DNA of 64,000 nt from a virus. Position 1 is the stretch's first letter. Each line of letters begins with the position of its first letter. The DNA is taken from UHGV virus genome UHGV-1384413; one strand, 5' to 3'. The notes beneath the pieces were generated by a model. It searched no databases. It saw nothing but the letters and a program-made list of their open reading frames with translations, and had not been told where the DNA came from. The translations under genes were made by a program, and so were the position numbers. Below, piece by piece: positions 9,828 through 16,550 of the stretch.

Positions 9828-10382
9828 ATGAAATACTTTGTAACAAGCGACACACACTTTCTCCACCAGCGGGTAATGGAGTTCGACTCATGTCAAAAAC
9901 ACAGATCTCAGTATGATCACAATCTTGACAGTATGAATGCGGGAATCATCACCAAGTGGAACTCTGTTGTGTCACCTGCAGACACTGTGTTTCACTTGGG
10001 GGATATTGCGTGCACTAATGATAAGAATATCAACAAATTGCTTCCAGATGTTCTAAATATGTTGAACGGACATATTATTCTTGTTCGTGGTAACCATGAC
10101 ACAAGGACGACTGTCAGAATTATGAAAGAGTTCGGTCATGAGGTTGTAGATTATTACGAGCTTCGCCACAACAAGAATTTGATCTGTATGAGCCATTACC
10201 AGTTTGCAAAGTGGAACAGAAAGCCTCACGGATCAGTCCAACTGTTCGGTCATGCTCACGGAACCACACAGCAGTTGTTTGGCAGGCAGTTTGATGTCGG
10301 TTGGGATGTGTGGGGGAGACTCTTACCATTAGAAGAGGCATACCGTATTGCAATGAGTCTTGCTATTGACAGCGGGGAGTAA
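9828..10382 (+). CDS. metallophosphoesterase (calcineurin-like), candidate RNA 3'-phosphatase / 2',3'-cyclic phosphodiesterase
   Basis: 184 aa from ATG 9828 with RBS gaggaa; complete MPE signature SDTHF, HLGDI, GNHD, GHAHG. Confidence 0.7.
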   Translation: MKYFVTSDTHFLHQRVMEFDSCQKHRSQYDHNLDSMNAGIITKWNSVVSPADTVFHLGDIACTNDKNINKLLPDVLNMLNGHIILVRGNHDTRTTVRIMKEFGHEVVDYYELRHNKNLICMSHYQFAKWNRKPHGSVQLFGHAHGTTQQLFGRQFDVGWDVWGRLLPLEEAYRIAMSLAIDSGE

Positions 10383-10429
10383 TCCCTGCTATTTTAAAGA
10401 AAATTGCCACACAAGGAGAATCAGGAGAT

Positions 10430-10780
10430 ATGAAAGATGGGGATAAGCTGCTATATCTTAAAGTCCCCCTTGAAATACTGTCTATGTCAAAAGTTTTGAA
10501 TGACACAACTGGGGAGGTTGTTGTTCTTGACTTATATGACAAGATCGTATACTGCTACCTGCACAACTGGTATAAGCTTGGAGAAAATTCACGCTTCACA
10601 CCCAGCACAAGGAAAATTGCAGCAGATGTTGGGATAAAGAAAACAAAAGCAGCAGCGTGCGTTAAAACTTTAGAATGTGCAGGAGTGGTTGAAATATCCA
10701 CACAAGGGAGAGGTAAAAGATGCACATTTTCCAAAGTTTTGCCACCAGAAGAAGTTATTCGAATGTCAACAACTGGTTAG
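10430..10780 (+). CDS. winged-helix DNA-binding protein (possible iteron-binding regulator or initiator)
   Basis: 116 aa; helix-turn-helix-like STRKIAADVGIKKTKAAACVKTLECAGVV; sits directly upstream of the palindromic repeat array. Confidence 0.4.
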   Translation: MKDGDKLLYLKVPLEILSMSKVLNDTTGEVVVLDLYDKIVYCYLHNWYKLGENSRFTPSTRKIAADVGIKKTKAAACVKTLECAGVVEISTQGRGKRCTFSKVLPPEEVIRMSTTG

Positions 10781-10855
10781 ACCAGTAAAAACTTAAACAT
10801 CTGTACTATAAGGATTTGTATGTTTTATGTTCACTCTGGAACAGAGGTTAGTAAC

Positions 10856-10936
10856 TGTCCGTGATACGGACACTACTGTCCGTCACGCGGACACATCTGC
10901 CCGTAGTACGGACACTAACTGTCCGTGATACGGACA
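10856..10936. repeat. array of four imperfect palindromic iterons, GTCCG-N5-CGGAC, on a 21-22 bp period
   Basis: Half-site starts at 10857, 10878, 10899 (gcccg variant) and 10921; units 1 and 4 are identical (taactgtccgtgatacggacac). Confidence 0.8.
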
Positions 10937-11075
10937 CATAAAGAATATAACTAAAATAACTAAATAATAAAAATAAAAGATCTAGCACTTATGGTACTAA
11001 AGTACATATACTTAACTTATGTAGAATATACTAGATCCTAAGTACCATGTTTTAAATTTATTACTTATTACTTAT
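10937..11075. other. AT-rich tract with short direct repeats (possible DNA unwinding element)
   Basis: ataactaaaataactaaataataaaaataaaag and ttattacttattacttatta; no ORF on either strand. Confidence 0.4.
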
Positions 11076-11300
11076 TATGGGTAGTGTCGGCCCTTCATTG
11101 GCACTCGCCTACGAGGGGCGAGATGCCGGGCCTCCGTAGTGCACACAATAACAGAAGTGCATACATGCAGGACTGTTAACATGTGTGGGAGCGAAGCGAT
11201 AGCGCAGGCCAAAGGCCGAGCACTAATGTGGATCACCGACGAAAGCTTGCCAGCGCCGGAAGGAGTCGGTTGAGAGCCTCCCGCGCGAGTTCTGATAAAG
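11076..11300. other. GC-rich ORF-free segment with multiple hairpins (candidate structured RNA or cis-element)
   Basis: Local inverted repeats ctcgcc..ggcgag and ggcc aaa ggcc; composition contrasts sharply with the flanking AT-rich DNA; no ORF of 60 aa or more. Confidence 0.3.
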
Positions 11301-11447
11301 TTTATGTGTGGAAACTGACAAGAAGGCTCCTAAATCGCTCCACAGCTATATAAACTATACCAAGTAAGGCAATCGCACCAGTTTGATAGAAAAGCTCGTT
11401 ACAAAGCGATACAGTGAGTTTTTCTATAACTTGAAGAGGAGGCTGCT

Positions 11448-12026
11448 ATGAGTTCACGCAAAGATGCCCGTGAAAAGATTGCAAAACGTTATCAGGATGA
11501 AGAACAGATGGAGAAAACTTTCAAGTGGAAGCCAGGTTTCCAGCGTAATCATTCTAACGCCCGTGATCGTAAGCATCCTGATAAGTGGCTAACACCGCCA
11601 AATGATGGCATGCAGGTTGGTGATGAGAAGGAGCTATCACCTGGAAAAGATGGCAACTACATTCGCACTAAGGACGCCAGTCCAAAGGATGACAGCTATC
11701 TTGTAGATAAGGTTCTTGATGGTATTGATGTAGATGTTGACACTGCACGAAACCTTTTTCTTGGTTGGTATCGTACAGGGTTTTTCGACATCAAGGCTAT
11801 TCGTCGTGTTTGTGATATTAAAAAGTCTGCATATGATGACGACTCGTTACATCGCACCCTGAGACAATATTCAGAAAGATATGGTCATCCGGTTATCACT
11901 CTTGACGATGTTAACGAAGTGATGTATCATGCAGAGGTTGTTGCAGGCAGATTTGGTGATGCATATCTTGATATCCTTTCTGCAAACGATGAGGTAATGT
12001 TGAATAAGATTTACTATGAACGTTGA
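11448..12026 (+). CDS. hypothetical protein
   Basis: 192 aa; RBS gaggagg upstream of the ATG. Confidence 0.45.
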   Translation: MSSRKDAREKIAKRYQDEEQMEKTFKWKPGFQRNHSNARDRKHPDKWLTPPNDGMQVGDEKELSPGKDGNYIRTKDASPKDDSYLVDKVLDGIDVDVDTARNLFLGWYRTGFFDIKAIRRVCDIKKSAYDDDSLHRTLRQYSERYGHPVITLDDVNEVMYHAEVVAGRFGDAYLDILSANDEVMLNKIYYER

Positions 12027-12225
12027 GGAGAGCTTAATGAACAATCCGGTAGCAAAGAACTGTAATAAGTTCAACAAGTCTGCAATTCACACCGACAGGA
12101 AAAAGAGCTGGTCACCGGACATTGACGAGGAGCTTGAGAATTACTTTGAAGATCTAGTCACCAATGCAGGTGAGGTTGCGATTAAAGAATACGCAGACAG
12201 GAAGGATAAGGCCGGAATCTGTTGA
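12016..12225 (+). CDS. hypothetical protein
   Basis: 69-aa ORF overlapping the preceding stop. Confidence 0.3.
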   Translation: MNVEESLMNNPVAKNCNKFNKSAIHTDRKKSWSPDIDEELENYFEDLVTNAGEVAIKEYADRKDKAGIC

Positions 12226-12272
12226 CAAAAATAATGTTACCTGATAAGATCTGCAATATGATGTGATACAAT
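12222..12272 (+). promoter_or_regulatory. promoter region (TTGACA-17-TAAGAT, plus downstream TGATACAAT extended -10)
   Basis: TTGACA 12222-12227 and TAAGAT 12245-12250; TGATACAAT 12264-12272 is identical to the motif at 30669. Confidence 0.4.
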
Positions 12273-12301
12273 TTTAACTTACGAGGTCTACAGGTAATGC
12301 T

Positions 12302-12544
12302 ATGTTTAAGGTTAAGCTCGTTTTCCGTTCCATGAATGAGGATTATTTAGAAGATGAAGGTGAATTTCGTGCACTAGATGATGCAATAGATTTTGCCAAC
12401 GACTTAGCTTGTATGAATACTGGTTATGGTTTATGTTGTTGGGATGGTGGTGTTCAGATTGGTGATAGCAAGATCTTCTACTTCTACCCTGAGCCCGATA
12501 ACAAACAAATTAAGTATGTTTTATTTATTTGTGCTTTACAATAA
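12302..12544 (+). CDS. hypothetical protein
   Basis: 80-aa ORF. Confidence 0.4.
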   Translation: MFKVKLVFRSMNEDYLEDEGEFRALDDAIDFANDLACMNTGYGLCCWDGGVQIGDSKIFYFYPEPDNKQIKYVLFICALQ

Positions 12545-12832
12545 GGTTGTTTTCGTGTATCATGATGAATATCCAATTTAAAGATGAGTTTGATGGCTTT
12601 ATCTCCGGATGCTTTGAAACAGGGTTCGGAGAAGACTGAGTTCCCCTTAGAGGGCTTGATAGTGCACCACACTTAAAATGGTAGGGGCAGCCAGCACATG
12701 ACGATGTGACCCCAGCCAACCTGTAATAAGGTCGAGCCAGAGCGCGGTAATGGGTATCTGGTAACCCACTTGTTGGGTCTTGCTGGTCCAGGACGCTGGG
12801 CAAGTCGCAGGGAATACCACCCTGCGGCGAAC
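12545..12832. other. GC-rich non-coding island (candidate structured RNA)
   Basis: No plus-strand ORF; all three minus frames stay open with Pro/Arg/Ser-rich low-complexity translations (track ORFs 12484-12954); perfect hairpin cgcaggg-aatacca-ccctgcg at 12806-12826. Confidence 0.35.
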
Positions 12833-12861
12833 TTGACAATCAGTATTTGCCGTGATAAAAT
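12833..12861 (+). promoter_or_regulatory. consensus sigma70 promoter with extended -10
   Basis: TTGACA 12833-12838, 17-bp spacer, TGaTAAAAT ending at 12861. Confidence 0.55.
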
Positions 12862-12889
12862 CCACCTATCACGTGATAATGGAGGAAAC

Positions 12890-13228
12890 ATGGCGGATAC
12901 AACTAAAAAGCGTCGCCGTAGAGGCAGACCTCTGAAAGAGGAGTCCAACGCCATTCAGCTAGAGAAGAACATTCTTGATATGAAGGAATCTTTTATAGCG
13001 ATGGTTCCAGAAGCTCACAAAGTTTTAAGAGAGCTGATGTTGGACCCGAAAACCAAACAAAATATTCGTCAAAGCATTGCAGAGTATGTTCTTGATAAGG
13101 CAGACCGAATGCAGGAAGAATATGATGAGATGTTTGGTGAAGAGGAAGAGGTGGTAGTAGAAGAGGCTGAAAAACCAGCACCTTTTATGCCATTTACCAC
13201 AGAAATACAGCCTGTTGGCAATAGTTAA
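12890..13228 (+). CDS. small DNA-binding-like protein with basic N-terminus and acidic C-terminus (terminase small subunit candidate, speculative)
   Basis: Start moved to ATG 12890 (RBS ggagga, promoter at 12833); MADTTKKRRRRGRPLK AT-hook-like N-terminus; track start 12770 lies in the GC island. Confidence 0.4.
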   Translation: MADTTKKRRRRGRPLKEESNAIQLEKNILDMKESFIAMVPEAHKVLRELMLDPKTKQNIRQSIAEYVLDKADRMQEEYDEMFGEEEEVVVEEAEKPAPFMPFTTEIQPVGNS

Positions 13229-13237
13229 AATATTTTC

Positions 13238-13266
13238 TTGACAAACTTTGCTTAACAGTGTAATAT
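13238..13266 (+). promoter_or_regulatory. sigma70-like promoter for the tRNA cluster
   Basis: TTGACA 13238-13243, 17 bp, TAATAT 13261-13266. Confidence 0.5.
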
Positions 13267-13324
13267 TGTAAACATGGTCTCCCACCTTTTCTGGCGGCTC
13301 AGGTGTAAAAGAAAGCCACCCAGT

Positions 13325-13399
13325 GCCCTGTTAGCTTAGTGGATAAAGCAGCGGCCTTCTAAGCCGTTGACACTGGTTCGAGTCCAGTACGGGGTGCCA
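13325..13399 (+). tRNA. tRNA-Arg (anticodon TCT)
   Basis: Manual cloverleaf: acceptor gccctgt/acggggt, D stem gctt/aagc, anticodon loop cuUCUaa, T loop ttcgagt, CCA encoded. Confidence 0.7.
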
Positions 13400-13403
13400 A
13401 ATT

Positions 13404-13490
13404 GGGGAGTTATCCCGTAGAGGTAGCGGTGTAGACTGTAAATCTATTGTCATTGCGACTCGGGTGGTTCGACTCCACCACTCCCCACCA
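13404..13490 (+). tRNA. tRNA-Tyr (anticodon GTA), long variable arm
   Basis: Acceptor ggggagt/actcccc, anticodon loop cuGUAaa, variable arm tgtcattgcgactcg, T loop ttcgact, CCA encoded; D stem imperfect. Confidence 0.65.
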
Positions 13491-13604
13491 AATTTACATT
13501 TTTAAATGCATAAATTATACAGATAATGACATTGATATTTATCGTCGTTTATACTAGTCACTAACTGCTCGAAAATCAGTGTCATTATCAGTGTAATTTA
13601 TAAA

Positions 13605-13695
13605 GGAGAGTAGGGAGCAATGGTGCTCAAGCGGTCTTGAAAACCGTCCCATTGAGGACGACTTGATGATGGTTCGATTCCATTACTCTCCGCCA
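13605..13695 (+). tRNA. tRNA-Ser (anticodon TGA), long variable arm
   Basis: Acceptor ggagagt/actctcc, anticodon stem gcggt/accgt with loop cuUGAaa, 20-nt variable arm, T loop ttcgatt, CCA encoded. Confidence 0.65.
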
Positions 13696-13793
13696 TATTG
13701 TTAACCTTGTAATTAAGCGAAAGCCGGAAGCAGAACCGGATTATCAAATGTTACAGTCGTCATCGCCGACTAGCAACATGGTTAACATTATTC

Positions 13794-13890
13794 GCTAGGT
13801 AAGCCCTTTGGCAAGGGCGAGGATTTTTAATCCTGAAAATAGACGAGGTAGTCGTTGAATACATAGGTGGTTCGATTCCATCACCTAGCA
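13794..13890 (+). tRNA. atypical tRNA-like gene (best fit anticodon TTT, Lys-like) with ~30-nt variable region
   Basis: Perfect 7-bp acceptor gctaggt/acctagc and canonical T arm ggtgg-ttcgatt-ccatc, but the anticodon arm is 4 bp plus a G.G pair around loop uuUUUaa, followed by a 30-nt stem-loop region; no CCA. Confidence 0.4.
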
Positions 13891-13896
13891 CCTTTT

Positions 13897-13972
13897 GCTG
13901 ATGTAGCACAATTGGCAGTGCAATTGATTTGTAATCAATAGGTTGCAGGTTCAAGTCCTGCCATCAGCACCA
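13897..13972 (+). tRNA. tRNA-Thr (anticodon TGT)
   Basis: Acceptor gctgatg/catcagc, anticodon stem attga/tcaat with loop uuUGUaa, T arm gcagg-ttcaagt-cctgc, CCA encoded. Confidence 0.7.
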
Positions 13973-13973
13973 T

Positions 13974-14048
13974 GGCCCTGTAGCTGGAAGGTTCAAGCAA
14001 GCGACTCATAATCGCCAGACGGTGGTTCAATTCCACCCAGGGCCACCA
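13974..14048 (+). tRNA. tRNA-Met or tRNA-Ile2 (anticodon CAT)
   Basis: Acceptor ggccctg/cagggcc, anticodon loop cuCAUaa, T arm ggtgg-ttcaatt-ccacc, CCA encoded. Confidence 0.65.
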
Positions 14049-14059
14049 AATAATAAATA

Positions 14060-14136
14060 CTCCGCGTAGCTCAGCTTGGTAGAGCGCCTGATTTGGGATC
14101 AGGAGGTCGAGTGTTCGAATCACTCCGTGGAGACCA
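14060..14136 (+). tRNA. tRNA-Pro (anticodon TGG)
   Basis: Acceptor ctccgcg/cgtggag, D arm gctcagcttggtagagc, anticodon stem cctga/tcagg with loop uuUGGga, CCA encoded. Confidence 0.7.
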
Positions 14137-15241: not shown

Positions 15242-15666
15242 TGTCTAAGATTTACGGACCGTGTTCTGAAAAGCAGAAGATGATCCTAGAGAACGATGCA
15301 GATATTTTGGTGATCGGAGGTGCAGCTGGGTCTGGCAAGTCGTTCCTCTTGCAGCTAATGCCGCTTAAAATTATTGATGACCCGCACAGCTCTGTGGTTA
15401 TGTTCCGAAGAACAACTCCCCAGTTGGAAGGTGAGGGTGGGCTATGGCCTAAAGCAGTAGCTATTTACAGTGATCTGCCTGAAAACATTAAACCAAAGTT
15501 CAGAGAGAAGGATCATAAGTTTATTTTTCCACGGTTTGATCCGAGCACTGGCAAGTGGGATAGGAGCAAAAAGGGGGCCGTTGTAAAATACTGCCACATG
15601 GAGTATGTCCAAGATAAGCTTAACCATCAAGGCCTTGAGTACACCATGGTTTGCTTCGATGAGGGT
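15241..15666 (+). CDS. terminase large subunit, ATPase N-terminal part (exon 1)
   Basis: Walker A GGAAGSGKS; ORF ends straight after Walker B MVCFDEG with TAA at 15667. Confidence 0.7.
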
Positions 15667-16550
15667 TAATTTGTAGCTCTCGTAAAACCTCCCTAATTGC
15701 GGGGAAATCTTTATTATTGACACCACCAACCTGTCATGGTAACATGATAGAGGCTTCGAAGAGAGATCGAAGGTATGGTAACAGTGTGTTAATTTAGATA
15801 ATCCGCAGCGAAGCATCCGAGAGGATGAACGTTCAACGACTAGTCGAAAGACGTAGAATCAAGCGATTCGAAACGGGAGGGTGAATGTGTAATACTAAAA
15901 AAATGTATGGATTGCCAAAGAGTTCTGCCTCTTGATGATTTCTTTTTATCATCTAAGAGCAAGGATGGATACTCAGGTACATGCAAGGAATGCTATATGT
16001 ACTACAGGAAGAATGGATCTCGTAGAAACAAAAATATGGTTAAGAGAGATGATGCAGCATCTTTTGTTCAAGACTTGCTGAAGAAAGGTGAGCTTTTTGA
16101 ATGTAAATCTTGTCATGAAAGTATGCTTGCTGATAGTTTTTACACAAAGCGTGACTATGGTAAAGTGTATCTGGTTACGAACAGGTGTAAGATGTGTGAA
16201 AAGTTTTATCAGATTGAGAAGAAATTTCACATAACAAAAGATGAATACTATCGTTTACTCTCAGATCAAGATCATAAGTGTGCCATTTGTAGAATATCTC
16301 TTGATGAGTATAGGACGCAAGGGTACAGAGATTTCTTTTGTGTTGATCATGACCATAAAACTGGTGCTGTAAGAGGGTTGCTTTGTGATAAATGCAACAG
16401 AGCTTTAGGGTTCTTCCAAGAGGATGAGGAAACCATTCTTAGAGCAGCAGAGTATTTGCACATTCATAAGATATAGTCTGGTCTGCATGGAGACATGCAG
16501 CTGCCTGAAAATGGCGGGGCAAGACTAGCGACCTTGCCCGAACATAAACG
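15667..16550 (+). mobile_element. probable group I intron (boundaries approximate) carrying an HNH homing endonuclease ORF
   Basis: Interrupts the terminase reading frame right after Walker B; ORF-free flanks 15667-15906 and 16477-16550 contain hairpins such as gggcaag/cttgccc; stop at the 5' junction, candidate omega-G at 16550. Confidence 0.5.
15907..16476 (+). CDS. HNH homing endonuclease
   Basis: 189 aa; several CxxC pairs and canonical FCVDHDHKTGAVRGLLCDKCNRALG HNH core. Confidence 0.75.
   Translation: MDCQRVLPLDDFFLSSKSKDGYSGTCKECYMYYRKNGSRRNKNMVKRDDAASFVQDLLKKGELFECKSCHESMLADSFYTKRDYGKVYLVTNRCKMCEKFYQIEKKFHITKDEYYRLLSDQDHKCAICRISLDEYRTQGYRDFFCVDHDHKTGAVRGLLCDKCNRALGFFQEDEETILRAAEYLHIHKI

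What the first reader, a model, noticed from the sequence alone, without database searches (positions are those of the whole stretch)
10430..10936. Iteron array downstream of a winged-helix gene: candidate origin or operator
Four palindromes GTCCG-N5-CGGAC start at 10857, 10878, 10899 and 10921, a 21-22 bp spacing that places all sites on one face of the helix; units 1 and 4 are identical 22-mers. They sit just 3' of a 116-aa helix-turn-helix gene and are followed by an AT-rich tract with short direct repeats. This layout is typical of replication origins or of repressor/partition-site arrays.
Basis: partly seen in the sequence, partly recalled or inferred. Interest (0 to 1): 0.6.

Follow-up and report, generated by a model that had tools for sequence, protein, structure and literature searches.

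The report
Likely replication origin of rV5-like phages
Four evenly spaced DNA palindromes next to a small DNA-binding gene, followed by the most easily melted DNA in the genome, look like a lambda-style replication origin for rV5-like E. coli phages, whose origin has never been located.

Summary
Four 17-bp palindromes TGTCCG-N5-CGGACA (10856-10936, spacing 21/21/22 bp) lie 75 bp after a 116-aa winged-helix gene (10430-10780). The window is an rV5-like Vequintavirus. The array is unique in the 64-kb window and in the whole 138-kb rV5 genome. It is the best conserved non-coding stretch of the locus. The tract right after it (10938-11075) is the most AT-rich and least stable DNA of the whole genome.

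The same palindrome arrays turn up in 18 unrelated viral contigs (7 lineages). There they always sit directly 3' of a winged-helix coding segment. Often they lie inside a longer lambda-O-like "replication initiation" gene, with an AT-rich island on the far side.

A metagenomic family of 108-120-aa winged-helix proteins from large phages shows the same cassette: stop codon, 4-7 palindromes, AT-rich tract, GC hairpin. The half-sites differ between lineages (TGTCCG, TGTACG, TGTGTCG), as expected for cognate protein-site pairs.

Best reading (about 0.55): a lambda-type iteron origin whose initiator is reduced to its DNA-binding domain. Main rival (about 0.25): an operator array. No experiment exists. 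Novelty: new variant of a known kind.

The parts
10366..10395 (+). Sigma-70-like promoter (TTGACA-18-TATTTT, TG before the -10 hexamer) just upstream of the winged-helix gene. Transcription from here would run through the array and the AT tract.
   Evidence: 10 of 12 consensus matches. The same site is annotated 'promoter P76' in rV5. The segment 10383-10429 is 94-100% conserved in 6 relatives. No terminator-like site is found in 10300-11600. Function is inferred.
10430..10780 (+). 116-aa winged-helix protein (rV5 gp075/ORF79), the proposed iteron-binding mini-initiator.
   Evidence: ORF. Pfam DUF6945 and HTH_36. PHROG 12838 'replication initiation protein' E 2e-79, plus weaker hits to O-like PHROGs 8102, 428, 270, 678, 391. 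PDB 4RO3 E 1e-5. AF2 model with H-H-H-beta-beta winged-helix topology, pLDDT 67.5. dN/dS 0.13 against the most distant relative. Present in 119 phage records, all Vequintavirus.
10852..10937 (.). Array of four 21-22-bp repeats. Each holds a 17-bp palindrome TGTCCG-N5-CGGACA (10856-10872, 10877-10893, 10898-10914, 10920-10936). These are the proposed iterons.
   Evidence: Unique in the rV5 genome. The arms are invariant in 6 genomes except for a C/T difference in unit 3; the other changes fall in the central 5 bp. The p-distance to the most distant relative is 0.047, against synonymous pS 0.37 in the adjacent gene.
10938..11075 (.). AT-rich tract (about 80% A+T; 92.5% in the first 40 bp) with short tandem repeats. 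This is the proposed DNA unwinding element.
   Evidence: It ranks first for A+T and for lowest nearest-neighbour stability at 40, 60, 100 and 140 bp in the window and in the whole rV5 genome. Its start (ACACATAA...TATAA...AAAATAAAAG) resembles the junction after the arrays of the metagenomic relatives.
11076..11345 (.). GC-rich, strongly self-complementary, ORF-poor block that bounds the AT tract. It is possibly the counterpart of the GC hairpins that end the cassette in relatives. Its role is unknown.
   Evidence: Fold z-score -3.0 on the + strand and -4.05 on the - strand. No Rfam family matches. Conserved at 88-98%. GC hairpins follow the AT tract in L025, L090, L092, L094, L097, L098 and L099.

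Best explanation
This is most likely the replication origin of rV5-like phages (genus Vequintavirus), built like the lambda origin. Dimers of the 116-aa winged-helix protein would bind the four dyad-symmetric 17-bp sites. The sites are spaced two helical turns apart, so all dimers sit on one face of the DNA and can form a wrapped, O-some-like complex. The strain, helped by transcription entering from the gene's own promoter, would open the adjoining AT-rich tract. The phage's own T7-gp4-like primase-helicase and Pol A would then load there.

Unlike lambda O, the initiator here is only the DNA-binding domain, and the origin lies 75 bp outside the gene rather than inside it.

Shown: the array, its uniqueness, its conservation, the extreme AT tract, and the recurrence and co-variation of the cassette in other phages. 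Inferred: binding, melting, helicase loading and origin activity.
For: (1) The array is non-random and unique in the genome.

(2) Purifying selection acts on the palindrome arms. The array p-distance is 0.047 against 0.197 for the neighbouring spacer and pS 0.37 in the gene.

(3) The flanking tract is the most AT-rich and least stable DNA in the 138-kb genome.

(4) Tandem TGTCCG-N5-CGGACA arrays occur in 18 IMG/VR contigs, about 7 lineages. In every lineage the array lies directly 3' of a winged-helix coding segment. In 5 lineages the ORF continues through the array into a C-terminal domain, for 284-387 aa in total. Proteins of 5 of the 7 lineages match PHROGs named 'replication initiation protein' or 'replication initiation O-like'. 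In most lineages an AT-rich island lies on the distal side. [quoted passage not shown]

(5) A family of 108-120-aa winged-helix proteins from 120-180-kb phage contigs carries the same cassette: stop codon, 4-7 palindromes, AT tract, GC hairpin. The half-sites differ by lineage: TGTCCG, TGTACG, TGTGTCG, TGTATG/TGTGTG.

(6) The window protein hits the same O-like PHROGs weakly. Its own PHROG is annotated as a replication initiation protein.

(7) The locus lies about 1.5 kb from the main divergent-transcription point and the global cumulative GC-skew minimum of rV5.

(8) No origin is known for rV5. A skew analysis could not define one (PMC3606486).
Against: There is no experimental evidence of any kind.

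The protein has no helicase- or loader-recruiting domain, and no remnant of one lies downstream.

Sequence and fold place it only among generic winged-helix proteins, most of which are transcription factors. All fold-search E-values are above 0.03. The profile comparison with the array-linked proteins is weak: hhalign probability 44%.

The GC-skew minimum coincides with a change of transcription direction, so it is not independent evidence.

The palindrome alone is not diagnostic. About 35 arrays with a 20-bp period in Myxococcota and Burkholderiales chromosomes sit beside housekeeping genes.

Other genera of the same subfamily lack this gene and region, so the module is not universal for this replisome type.

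PHROG function names are themselves inferred.
Confidence: 0.55

Rival explanations
1. Operator array. The winged-helix protein is a transcription factor, and the four sites let it regulate expression cooperatively. It could repress or roadblock its own read-through transcript, or control the downstream cluster (gp073 onward, tRNAs). There would be no role in replication.
For: The fold and sequence matches are mostly to repressors such as CggR, DtxR, GntR-type, MarR and LexA. Many GenBank records call the gene a putative transcriptional regulator. In the metagenomic relatives the last palindrome abuts a conserved TATAAT-containing tract, so it could sit over a promoter.
Against: No conserved sigma-70 promoter overlaps or follows the array in the window. 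The only + strand hit after the array (11051-11078) depends on a 7-bp duplication that relatives lack. The sites lie downstream of the gene, not at its promoter. Identical arrays lie inside O-like initiator ORFs elsewhere. In L099 a perfect TTGACA-17-TATAAT promoter for the downstream genes lies after the hairpins, so the AT tract is not needed as their promoter. This reading does not explain why the flank is the least stable DNA of the genome.
Confidence: 0.25
2. RNA-level element. The palindromes act as four hairpins in the 3' untranslated region of the winged-helix mRNA, serving as stabilisers, processing sites or terminators.
For: Each unit can form a 6-7-bp stem with a 3-5-nt loop. The region is probably transcribed from the promoter at 10366. 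Loop positions vary while stems are kept.
Against: No U-tract follows any unit, and no terminator-like site is found. No compensatory stem changes are seen. The single arm change (C/T in unit 3) makes or breaks a pair rather than compensating. No Rfam family matches. The 21-22-bp phasing and the same palindromes inside protein-coding sequence in other phages fit DNA recognition.
Confidence: 0.04
3. Packaging (pac) or partition site. The repeats are recognised by a terminase small subunit or by a centromere-binding protein.
For: The genome is reported as circularly permuted, so a pac site must exist somewhere. The large terminase gene lies about 4.7 kb downstream. Small winged-helix proteins such as TubR bind repeat centromeres (own knowledge).
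Against: No partition NTPase and no terminase subunit gene is adjacent; the neighbours are a kinase, a phosphoesterase and unknown proteins. rV5 is a virulent phage. The same arrays occur inside O-like replication genes. The one record that starts at the array is an UNVERIFIED assembly with a garbled junction.
Confidence: 0.05
4. Inert repeat. This would be a REP- or MITE-like palindromic repeat with no specific function.
For: Arrays of the same palindrome with a 20-bp period lie between housekeeping genes in Myxococcota and Burkholderiales genomes.
Against: It is a single copy in the phage genome. It is conserved well above the neutral level in all 119 records that carry the gene. It sits in a fixed position relative to a co-varying protein gene in many lineages.
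Confidence: 0.03

Closest known systems
Phage lambda origin (ori-lambda) and O protein, including Stx-phage variants with six iterons
   Same: It has four (or more) imperfect inverted-repeat iterons of 17-19 bp in phase. They are bound by the winged-helix N-terminal domain of the initiator. An AT-rich unwinding tract follows on the downstream side, and the whole is transcribed from the initiator's promoter (PMC7466680). Viral contigs with the very same palindrome have the full lambda layout with the origin inside the gene.
   Different: The initiator here is 116 aa and has no C-terminal (P-binding) domain. The origin lies 75 bp beyond the stop codon. The iteron sequence differs (TGTCCG/CGGACA against TCCCTC/GAGGGA; the lambda sequence is from my own knowledge). 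There is no Pfam Phage_rep_O hit. The host phage is a large virulent myovirus with its own primase-helicase.
Iteron plasmid origins (RepA of pPS10, pi of R6K, RepA of pSK41)
   Same: Repeated initiator sites lie next to an AT-rich unwinding element, and the initiators are winged-helix proteins. The RepA N-terminal domain structures 4PQL and 4PT7 appear among the fold matches.
   Different: Plasmid iterons are usually direct, not dyad-symmetric, and are bound by monomers. The initiators have two winged-helix domains and need host DnaA and DnaB. Here no DnaA-box enrichment is seen. The fold matches are not significant (E 0.045-0.05).
T7 primary origin and T4 oriF/oriG (promoter plus AT-rich element, transcript-primed)
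   Same: The replisome type is the same: T7-like Pol A and a gp4-like primase-helicase in rV5. Transcription runs into an AT-rich tract.
   Different: Those origins have no initiator protein and no iterons (own knowledge).
Metagenomic 108-120-aa winged-helix cassette in 120-180-kb phage contigs (L025, L090, L092, L094, L097-L099; undescribed as far as I could find)
   Same: The protein size and fold class are the same. The array of 4-7 17-21-bp palindromes sits right after the gene, followed by an AT tract with the junction ACACATAA..TATAA..AAAATAAG, then GC hairpins. Several members have the same TGTCCG/CGGACA half-site.
   Different: Protein identity to the window protein is only 14-22%. In those contigs the array starts at the stop codon, whereas here there is a 75-bp spacer. 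Their AT tract is about 50 bp against about 140 bp here. They have a conserved upstream HTH_3-DUF5659 gene pair that is absent here. No cultured member was found.

Membership tests
Lambda-O-type iteron origin | Four or more dyad-symmetric initiator sites in helical phase | tested here: met
   Four 17-bp palindromes at 21/21/22-bp spacing.
Lambda-O-type iteron origin | AT-rich unwinding tract immediately flanking the iterons on the downstream side | tested here: met
   10938-11075 ranks first for A+T content and lowest duplex stability in the window and in the whole rV5 genome.
Lambda-O-type iteron origin | Origin located inside the initiator gene | tested here: not met
   The stop codon ends at 10780 and the array starts at 10852. 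The feature is met in L019, L022, L023, L024, L026 and L031, which carry the same palindrome.
Lambda-O-type iteron origin | Initiator with a C-terminal domain that recruits the helicase loader | tested here: not met
   The protein is 116 aa and is a single winged-helix domain. tblastn of C-terminal domains of array-linked O-like proteins against 10300-13300 gave only noise.
Lambda-O-type iteron origin | Initiator belongs to Pfam Phage_rep_O or a demonstrably homologous family | tested here: inconclusive
   There is no Phage_rep_O hit. HTH_36 scores 24.8 against a cut-off of 25. Weak hits go to O-like PHROGs 678, 391 and 8540, and stronger ones to 'replication initiation protein' PHROGs 8102 and 12838. 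hhalign to array-linked winged-helix domains gives probability 44%, E 2e-4.
Lambda-O-type iteron origin | Protein binds the iterons, and the region starts replication | not testable with these tools
   This needs EMSA or footprinting and marker-frequency or origin-cloning assays.
Pfam DUF6945 / winged helix | Score at or above the gathering threshold, and winged-helix topology | tested here: met
   28.5 bits against a cut-off of 28. The AF2 model shows three helices plus a beta-hairpin wing at pLDDT 67.5. All top fold matches are winged-helix domains, though none is significant.
Operator array of a phage repressor | Sites overlap or adjoin a promoter that they control | tested here: not met
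   No conserved sigma-70-type promoter lies at or after the array. Non-sigma-70 phage promoters are not covered by the scan.
Intrinsic terminator | GC-rich hairpin followed by a U-tract | tested here: not met
   Zero terminator-like sites in 10300-11600. No T-run follows any unit.
Partition centromere (TubR/ParB/ParR type) | Adjacent partition NTPase gene | tested here: not met
   The neighbours are a polynucleotide kinase, a phosphoesterase, unknown small proteins and tRNAs.
REP-like dispersed palindromes | Many dispersed copies per genome | tested here: not met
   There is one cluster in 137,947 bp of rV5.

The most novel reading that the evidence does not exclude
Single-domain winged-helix proteins of about 110-120 aa, together with an external cassette of palindromic iterons, an AT-rich tract and GC hairpins, form a widespread and so far undescribed class of phage replication origins. 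They would work without any helicase-recruiting domain in the initiator, perhaps through transcription-assisted melting and self-loading of a gp4-type primase-helicase. rV5-like phages would be the first cultured, genetically tractable members.
Probability: 0.4. Interest if true: 0.7.

Novelty: new variant of a known kind. Interest (0 to 1): 0.55.

Why it matters
rV5-like phages are among the most frequently isolated E. coli myoviruses and are candidates for biocontrol and therapy. Their replication origin is nevertheless unknown: the original genome paper tried skew analysis and could not define one. This work gives a precise candidate of about 220 bp and a candidate initiator, which makes the question directly testable.

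If it is confirmed, it would show that a lambda-type iteron origin can be run by an initiator stripped to its DNA-binding domain. It would also annotate at a stroke a large metagenomic family of small "hypothetical" winged-helix genes in big gut and rumen phages. A defined origin is also useful for engineering, for example phage-dependent amplifying plasmids and minimal replicons.

Tried and rejected
1. Homologues of the protein outside the genus. tblastn on 50,697 phage records, a word-indexed search and a full HMMER scan of 1.8 billion representatives gave only Vequintavirus proteins, plus weak hits to generic winged-helix domains.

2. Synteny in other Vequintavirinae and phi92-like phages. 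The phosphoesterase neighbour is conserved, but the winged-helix gene and the array are absent. An apparent resemblance of the AT tract to a Seunavirus intergenic region was not supported by alignment.

3. A decayed C-terminal O domain downstream of the array. None was found.

4. gp073 as a trans-acting C-terminal domain. It has no family hit beyond its own PHROG of unknown function.

5. Host-factor sites. DnaA boxes, IHF sites and GATC are not enriched.

6. Rfam families over the region. None matched.

7. A sigma-70 promoter in the AT tract. The only hit depends on a window-specific 7-bp duplication.

8. The first AF2 model from 5 near-identical sequences was useless (pLDDT 40). The second reached pLDDT 67.5, but the fold search does not separate regulators from initiators.

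9. Treating the palindrome as diagnostic of O-like origins. Rejected: many bacterial chromosomal arrays with a 20-bp period lie next to housekeeping genes.

10. A physical genome end at the array, suggested by record MG065672.1 starting there. Judged an assembly artefact.

11. Literature search for this iteron sequence. Nothing relevant turned up.

12. Cultured relatives of the metagenomic family. None found.

Full report
**Identity of the window.** The region 10380-11450 matches 119 phage records at 89-98% identity. All are rV5-like phages of the genus Vequintavirus. The window is the reverse complement of about 76-12 kb of rV5 (NC_011041). The ORF 10430-10780 is rV5 gp075 (ORF79). Records call it variously 'putative transcriptional regulator', 'replication initiation protein', 'DsrC like protein', 'DNA-binding protein' or 'hypothetical protein'.

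- GTCCG-N5-CGGAC occurs four times, at 10857, 10878, 10899 (one mismatch) and 10921. Chance expectation is 0.43, and 0 of 100 shuffles gave four.
- The full unit is a 17-bp palindrome TGTCCG-N5-CGGACA within a 21-22-bp repeat spanning 10852-10937. Units 1 and 4 are identical 22-mers.
- Half-site centres are about 11 bp apart and successive palindromes are 21, 21 and 22 bp apart. Dimers bound to them would all face one side of the helix; this is geometric inference.
- With up to three mismatches, only one weak three-mismatch match (at 1482-1500) turns up elsewhere in the 64-kb window. In the complete 137,947-bp rV5 genome the only cluster of half-sites is this one, at 65152-65232.

**The protein.**
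- It is a single winged-helix domain. Pfam gives DUF6945 (28.5 bits, cut-off 28), HTH_36 (24.8, cut-off 25) and a tail of other winged-helix families.
- Its PHROG (12838) is annotated 'replication initiation protein'. Weaker hits go to PHROGs annotated 'replication initiation protein' (8102, 428, 270) or 'replication initiation O-like' (678, 391, 8540).
- The only solved relative is a hypothetical protein, 4RO3.
- An AlphaFold model built on 77 sequences (pLDDT 67.5) has three helices followed by a beta-hairpin wing.
- Foldseek matches are all winged-helix domains. They are mostly repressors, with plasmid RepA N-terminal domains (4PQL, 4PT7) among them, and none is significant. The fold therefore does not decide between regulator and initiator.
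- The gene is under purifying selection: dN/dS is 0.13 against the most distant relative.

**Conservation.**
- In six genomes spanning the genus, the palindrome arms are invariant apart from a C/T difference in unit 3. The other substitutions fall in the central five bases.
- Against the most divergent genome, the array differs at 4 of 86 positions (0.047). The spacer just upstream differs at 0.197, and the synonymous p-distance in the adjacent gene is 0.37.
- The gene and the non-coding region are each found in 119 phage records with the same organism breakdown.

**The flank.**
- The tract 10938-11075 is about 80% A+T. It ranks first for A+T content and for lowest nearest-neighbour duplex stability at windows of 40, 60, 100 and 140 bp (A+T) and 50 and 100 bp (stability). 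This holds both in the window and in the whole rV5 genome.
- It holds short tandem repeats: ATAACTAAA x3.4 and TTATTAC x2.9.
- DnaA boxes, IHF sites and GATC are not enriched.
- A sigma-70-like promoter lies just upstream of the gene at 10366-10395 (TTGACA-18-TATTTT); rV5 annotates it as P76. No terminator-like site exists between it and 11600. Transcription probably crosses the array and the AT tract; this is inference.
- The only + strand promoter-like hit after the array (11051-11078) depends on a 7-bp duplication peculiar to this window.
- Beyond the AT tract lies a GC-rich, ORF-poor, strongly self-complementary block at 11076-11345, with fold z-scores of -3.0 and -4.05. It has no Rfam match.

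**Genome position.** The locus is about 1.5 kb from the main point of divergent transcription, which is also the global minimum of cumulative GC skew in rV5 (66 kb). Kropinski et al. noted that all skew switches coincide with changes of transcription direction and could not define an origin. They do not mention these repeats (PMC3606486). Some GenBank records mark the array only as a Tandem-Repeats-Finder 'repeat_region'.

**Comparative evidence 1: the same palindrome elsewhere.**
- A scan of IMG/VR for two adjacent TGTCCG-N5-CGGACA units found 18 contigs. The pattern has 23 specified bases, so by my estimate well under one chance hit is expected.
- The contigs fall into about seven lineages with G+C from 40 to 70%. 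Arrays have 3-7 units at a 21-25-bp period.
- In every lineage the array lies directly 3' of a winged-helix coding segment. In L019, L022, L023, L024 and the L026/L028/L031/L034 group, the ORF runs on through the array into a C-terminal domain, giving 284-387 aa in total.
- Proteins of five of the seven lineages match PHROGs annotated 'replication initiation protein' or 'replication initiation O-like'; L019 and L024 had no PHROG hit.
- In most lineages an AT-rich island lies on the distal side of the array. In the L026/L028/L031/L034 group, for example, the maximum A+T over 40 bp is 0.75-0.78, against locus means of 0.34-0.39.
- A cyanophage relative of one of these proteins (MED4-184, annotated 'replication initiation protein') has different repeats at the same position, followed by an A-rich tract.

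**Comparative evidence 2: co-variation.**
- A profile search with the winged-helix domains found 92 proteins. Most are 108-116 aa, and several sit on contigs of 120-180 kb.
- Seven loci were read: L090, L092, L094, L097, L098 and L099, plus L025 from the DNA scan. Each gene is followed, starting at the stop codon, by 4-7 palindromes of 17-21 bp. Next comes an AT-rich tract with a shared junction (ACACATAACAATATAATA...AAAATAAG), then one or two GC-rich hairpins.
- The half-sites differ between lineages: TGTCCG/CGGACA in L025, L090, L097 and L098; TGTACG/CGTACA in L092; TGTGTCG.C/G.CGACACA in L094; and TGTATG or TGTGTG...ACACA in L099.
- A fixed architecture with lineage-specific site sequences is what cognate protein-site pairs produce.
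- In L099 a perfect TTGACA-17-TATAAT promoter for the downstream genes lies after the hairpins. The AT tract therefore belongs to the upstream transcript and is not needed as their promoter.
- The window's junction (GGACACATAAAGAATATAAC...AAAAATAAAAG) resembles the family's.

**Limits of the comparative evidence.**
- The same scan of bacterial genomes gave 53 loci. A crude HMM of the winged-helix domains found such a domain just upstream of the array in eight of them: L038, L045, L049, L050, L051, L055, L082 and L085. In seven of these the array lies inside the ORF.
- About 35 other loci are arrays of 2-5 units at a 20-bp period in Myxococcota and Burkholderiales. They sit next to housekeeping genes such as ComM, ClpX and a sigma-54 activator. 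The palindrome alone is therefore not diagnostic.
- Direct homology between gp075 and the array-linked proteins is weak. phmmer E is about 0.004 in a small local database, hhalign probability is 44%, and identity to the profile-search family is 14-22%.
- Other genera of the subfamily lack the gene and the region.

**Interpretation.** The best-supported reading is a lambda-type iteron origin with a minimal initiator. Dimers bind four phased palindromes. The complex and incoming transcription open the adjacent, uniquely unstable AT tract. The phage's T7-gp4-like primase-helicase and Pol A take over from there. The anatomy, its conservation and its recurrence are shown. Binding, melting and initiation are inferred. 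I put this at about 0.55.

The main rival, at about 0.25, is an operator array for a transcription factor. It fits the fold matches and the older annotations. It does not explain the position downstream of the gene, the extreme AT tract, or the identical arrays inside O-like initiator genes. RNA hairpins or terminators, pac or partition sites, and an inert repeat are each unlikely for the reasons given under the rival explanations.

**Comparison with known systems.** The locus works like ori-lambda. It fails three membership features of the lambda O family: the origin is not inside the gene, there is no C-terminal recruiting domain, and there is no Phage_rep_O match. I therefore file it as a new variant of a known kind, not as a member of that family. 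I found no description of the small-protein cassette in the literature searched and no cultured relative of the metagenomic family.

Noticed in passing
window 11076-11345 (to about 11447): A GC-rich, ORF-poor, strongly self-complementary block lies between the AT tract and the next gene. Fold z-scores are -3.0 (+ strand) and -4.05 (- strand). It has no Rfam family and is conserved at 88-98%. rV5 carries an 18-bp deletion between GTGCA(C/T)ACA direct repeats. It could be a structured RNA, a 5' leader, or a DNA clamp that bounds the unwinding tract. Several GenBank records call short 'hypothetical proteins' here.
   Followed up: partly
L037-L089 (bacterial genome contigs), e.g. L041 6348-6451, L044 5829-5908, L056 1017-1113: Arrays of 2-5 TGTCCG-N5-CGGACA palindromes with a strict 20-bp period lie in intergenic DNA of Myxococcota (Kofleriaceae) and Burkholderiales genomes. 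They sit next to housekeeping genes such as ComM, ClpX and a sigma-54 activator, with no winged-helix gene detected nearby. Their nature is unexplained; they may be REP-like elements or sites of a host regulator.
   Followed up: partly
L010 2146-2482 (Salmonella phage SSE-121, Seunavirus): This divergent intergenic region has two to three palindromes ATTCCC-N4-GGGAAT at 24-bp spacing, followed by an AT-rich tract with repeated AGATCT motifs. It lies beside a winged-helix plus T5orf172 gene. It may be an analogous element in a sister genus that lacks gp075.
   Followed up: partly
L090, L092, L094, L097-L099, upstream of the winged-helix gene: In the metagenomic large-phage family, the small winged-helix gene is always preceded by the same pair of tiny genes. 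One is 65-67 aa (HTH_3 in some contigs) and the other is a 56-78-aa DUF5659 protein. This suggests a conserved three-gene early cassette.
   Followed up: no
MG065672.1 ('Campylobacter phage A141', UNVERIFIED), L016 1-180 and L017 200-370: This linear record starts exactly at the first repeat of the array and ends with a garbled version of the upstream spacer, which is probably an assembly break at the repeats. Eighteen records labelled 'Campylobacter phage' are in fact rV5-like Vequintavirus genomes.
   Followed up: partly
window 10827-10928 (+) and 10848-10988 (-): Short ORFs run across the palindrome array. The + strand one is annotated 'hypothetical protein' in several records (e.g. L001 3448-3549). 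They are likely spurious calls over a repeat.
   Followed up: no
window 15657-16500: A group I intron (Rfam RF00028, 50.9 bits, right at the gathering score of 50) lies in the large terminase region. This agrees with the published split terminase gene and HNH endonuclease of rV5.
   Followed up: no
window 13325-14133: This is a cluster of six tRNA genes. Two score weakly and are unusually long (13794-13890, 97 nt, 35.5 bits; 13406-13485, 80 nt, 29.9 bits). Different GenBank records annotate them differently (Lys or Ser, or not called).
   Followed up: no
window 11058-11077: A 7-bp tandem repeat (TTATTAC x2.9) has one extra copy here compared with five relatives. The extra copy creates the only sigma-70-like promoter match in the AT tract.
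   Followed up: yes
rV5 NC_011041 104013-106618 (L009 4013-6618; outside the window): A 2.6-kb stretch without annotated genes lies at the convergence of two transcription units; it is the 'non-coding' box of the rV5 paper. It holds some of the next most AT-rich segments of the genome (about 105,964-105,993).
   Followed up: no
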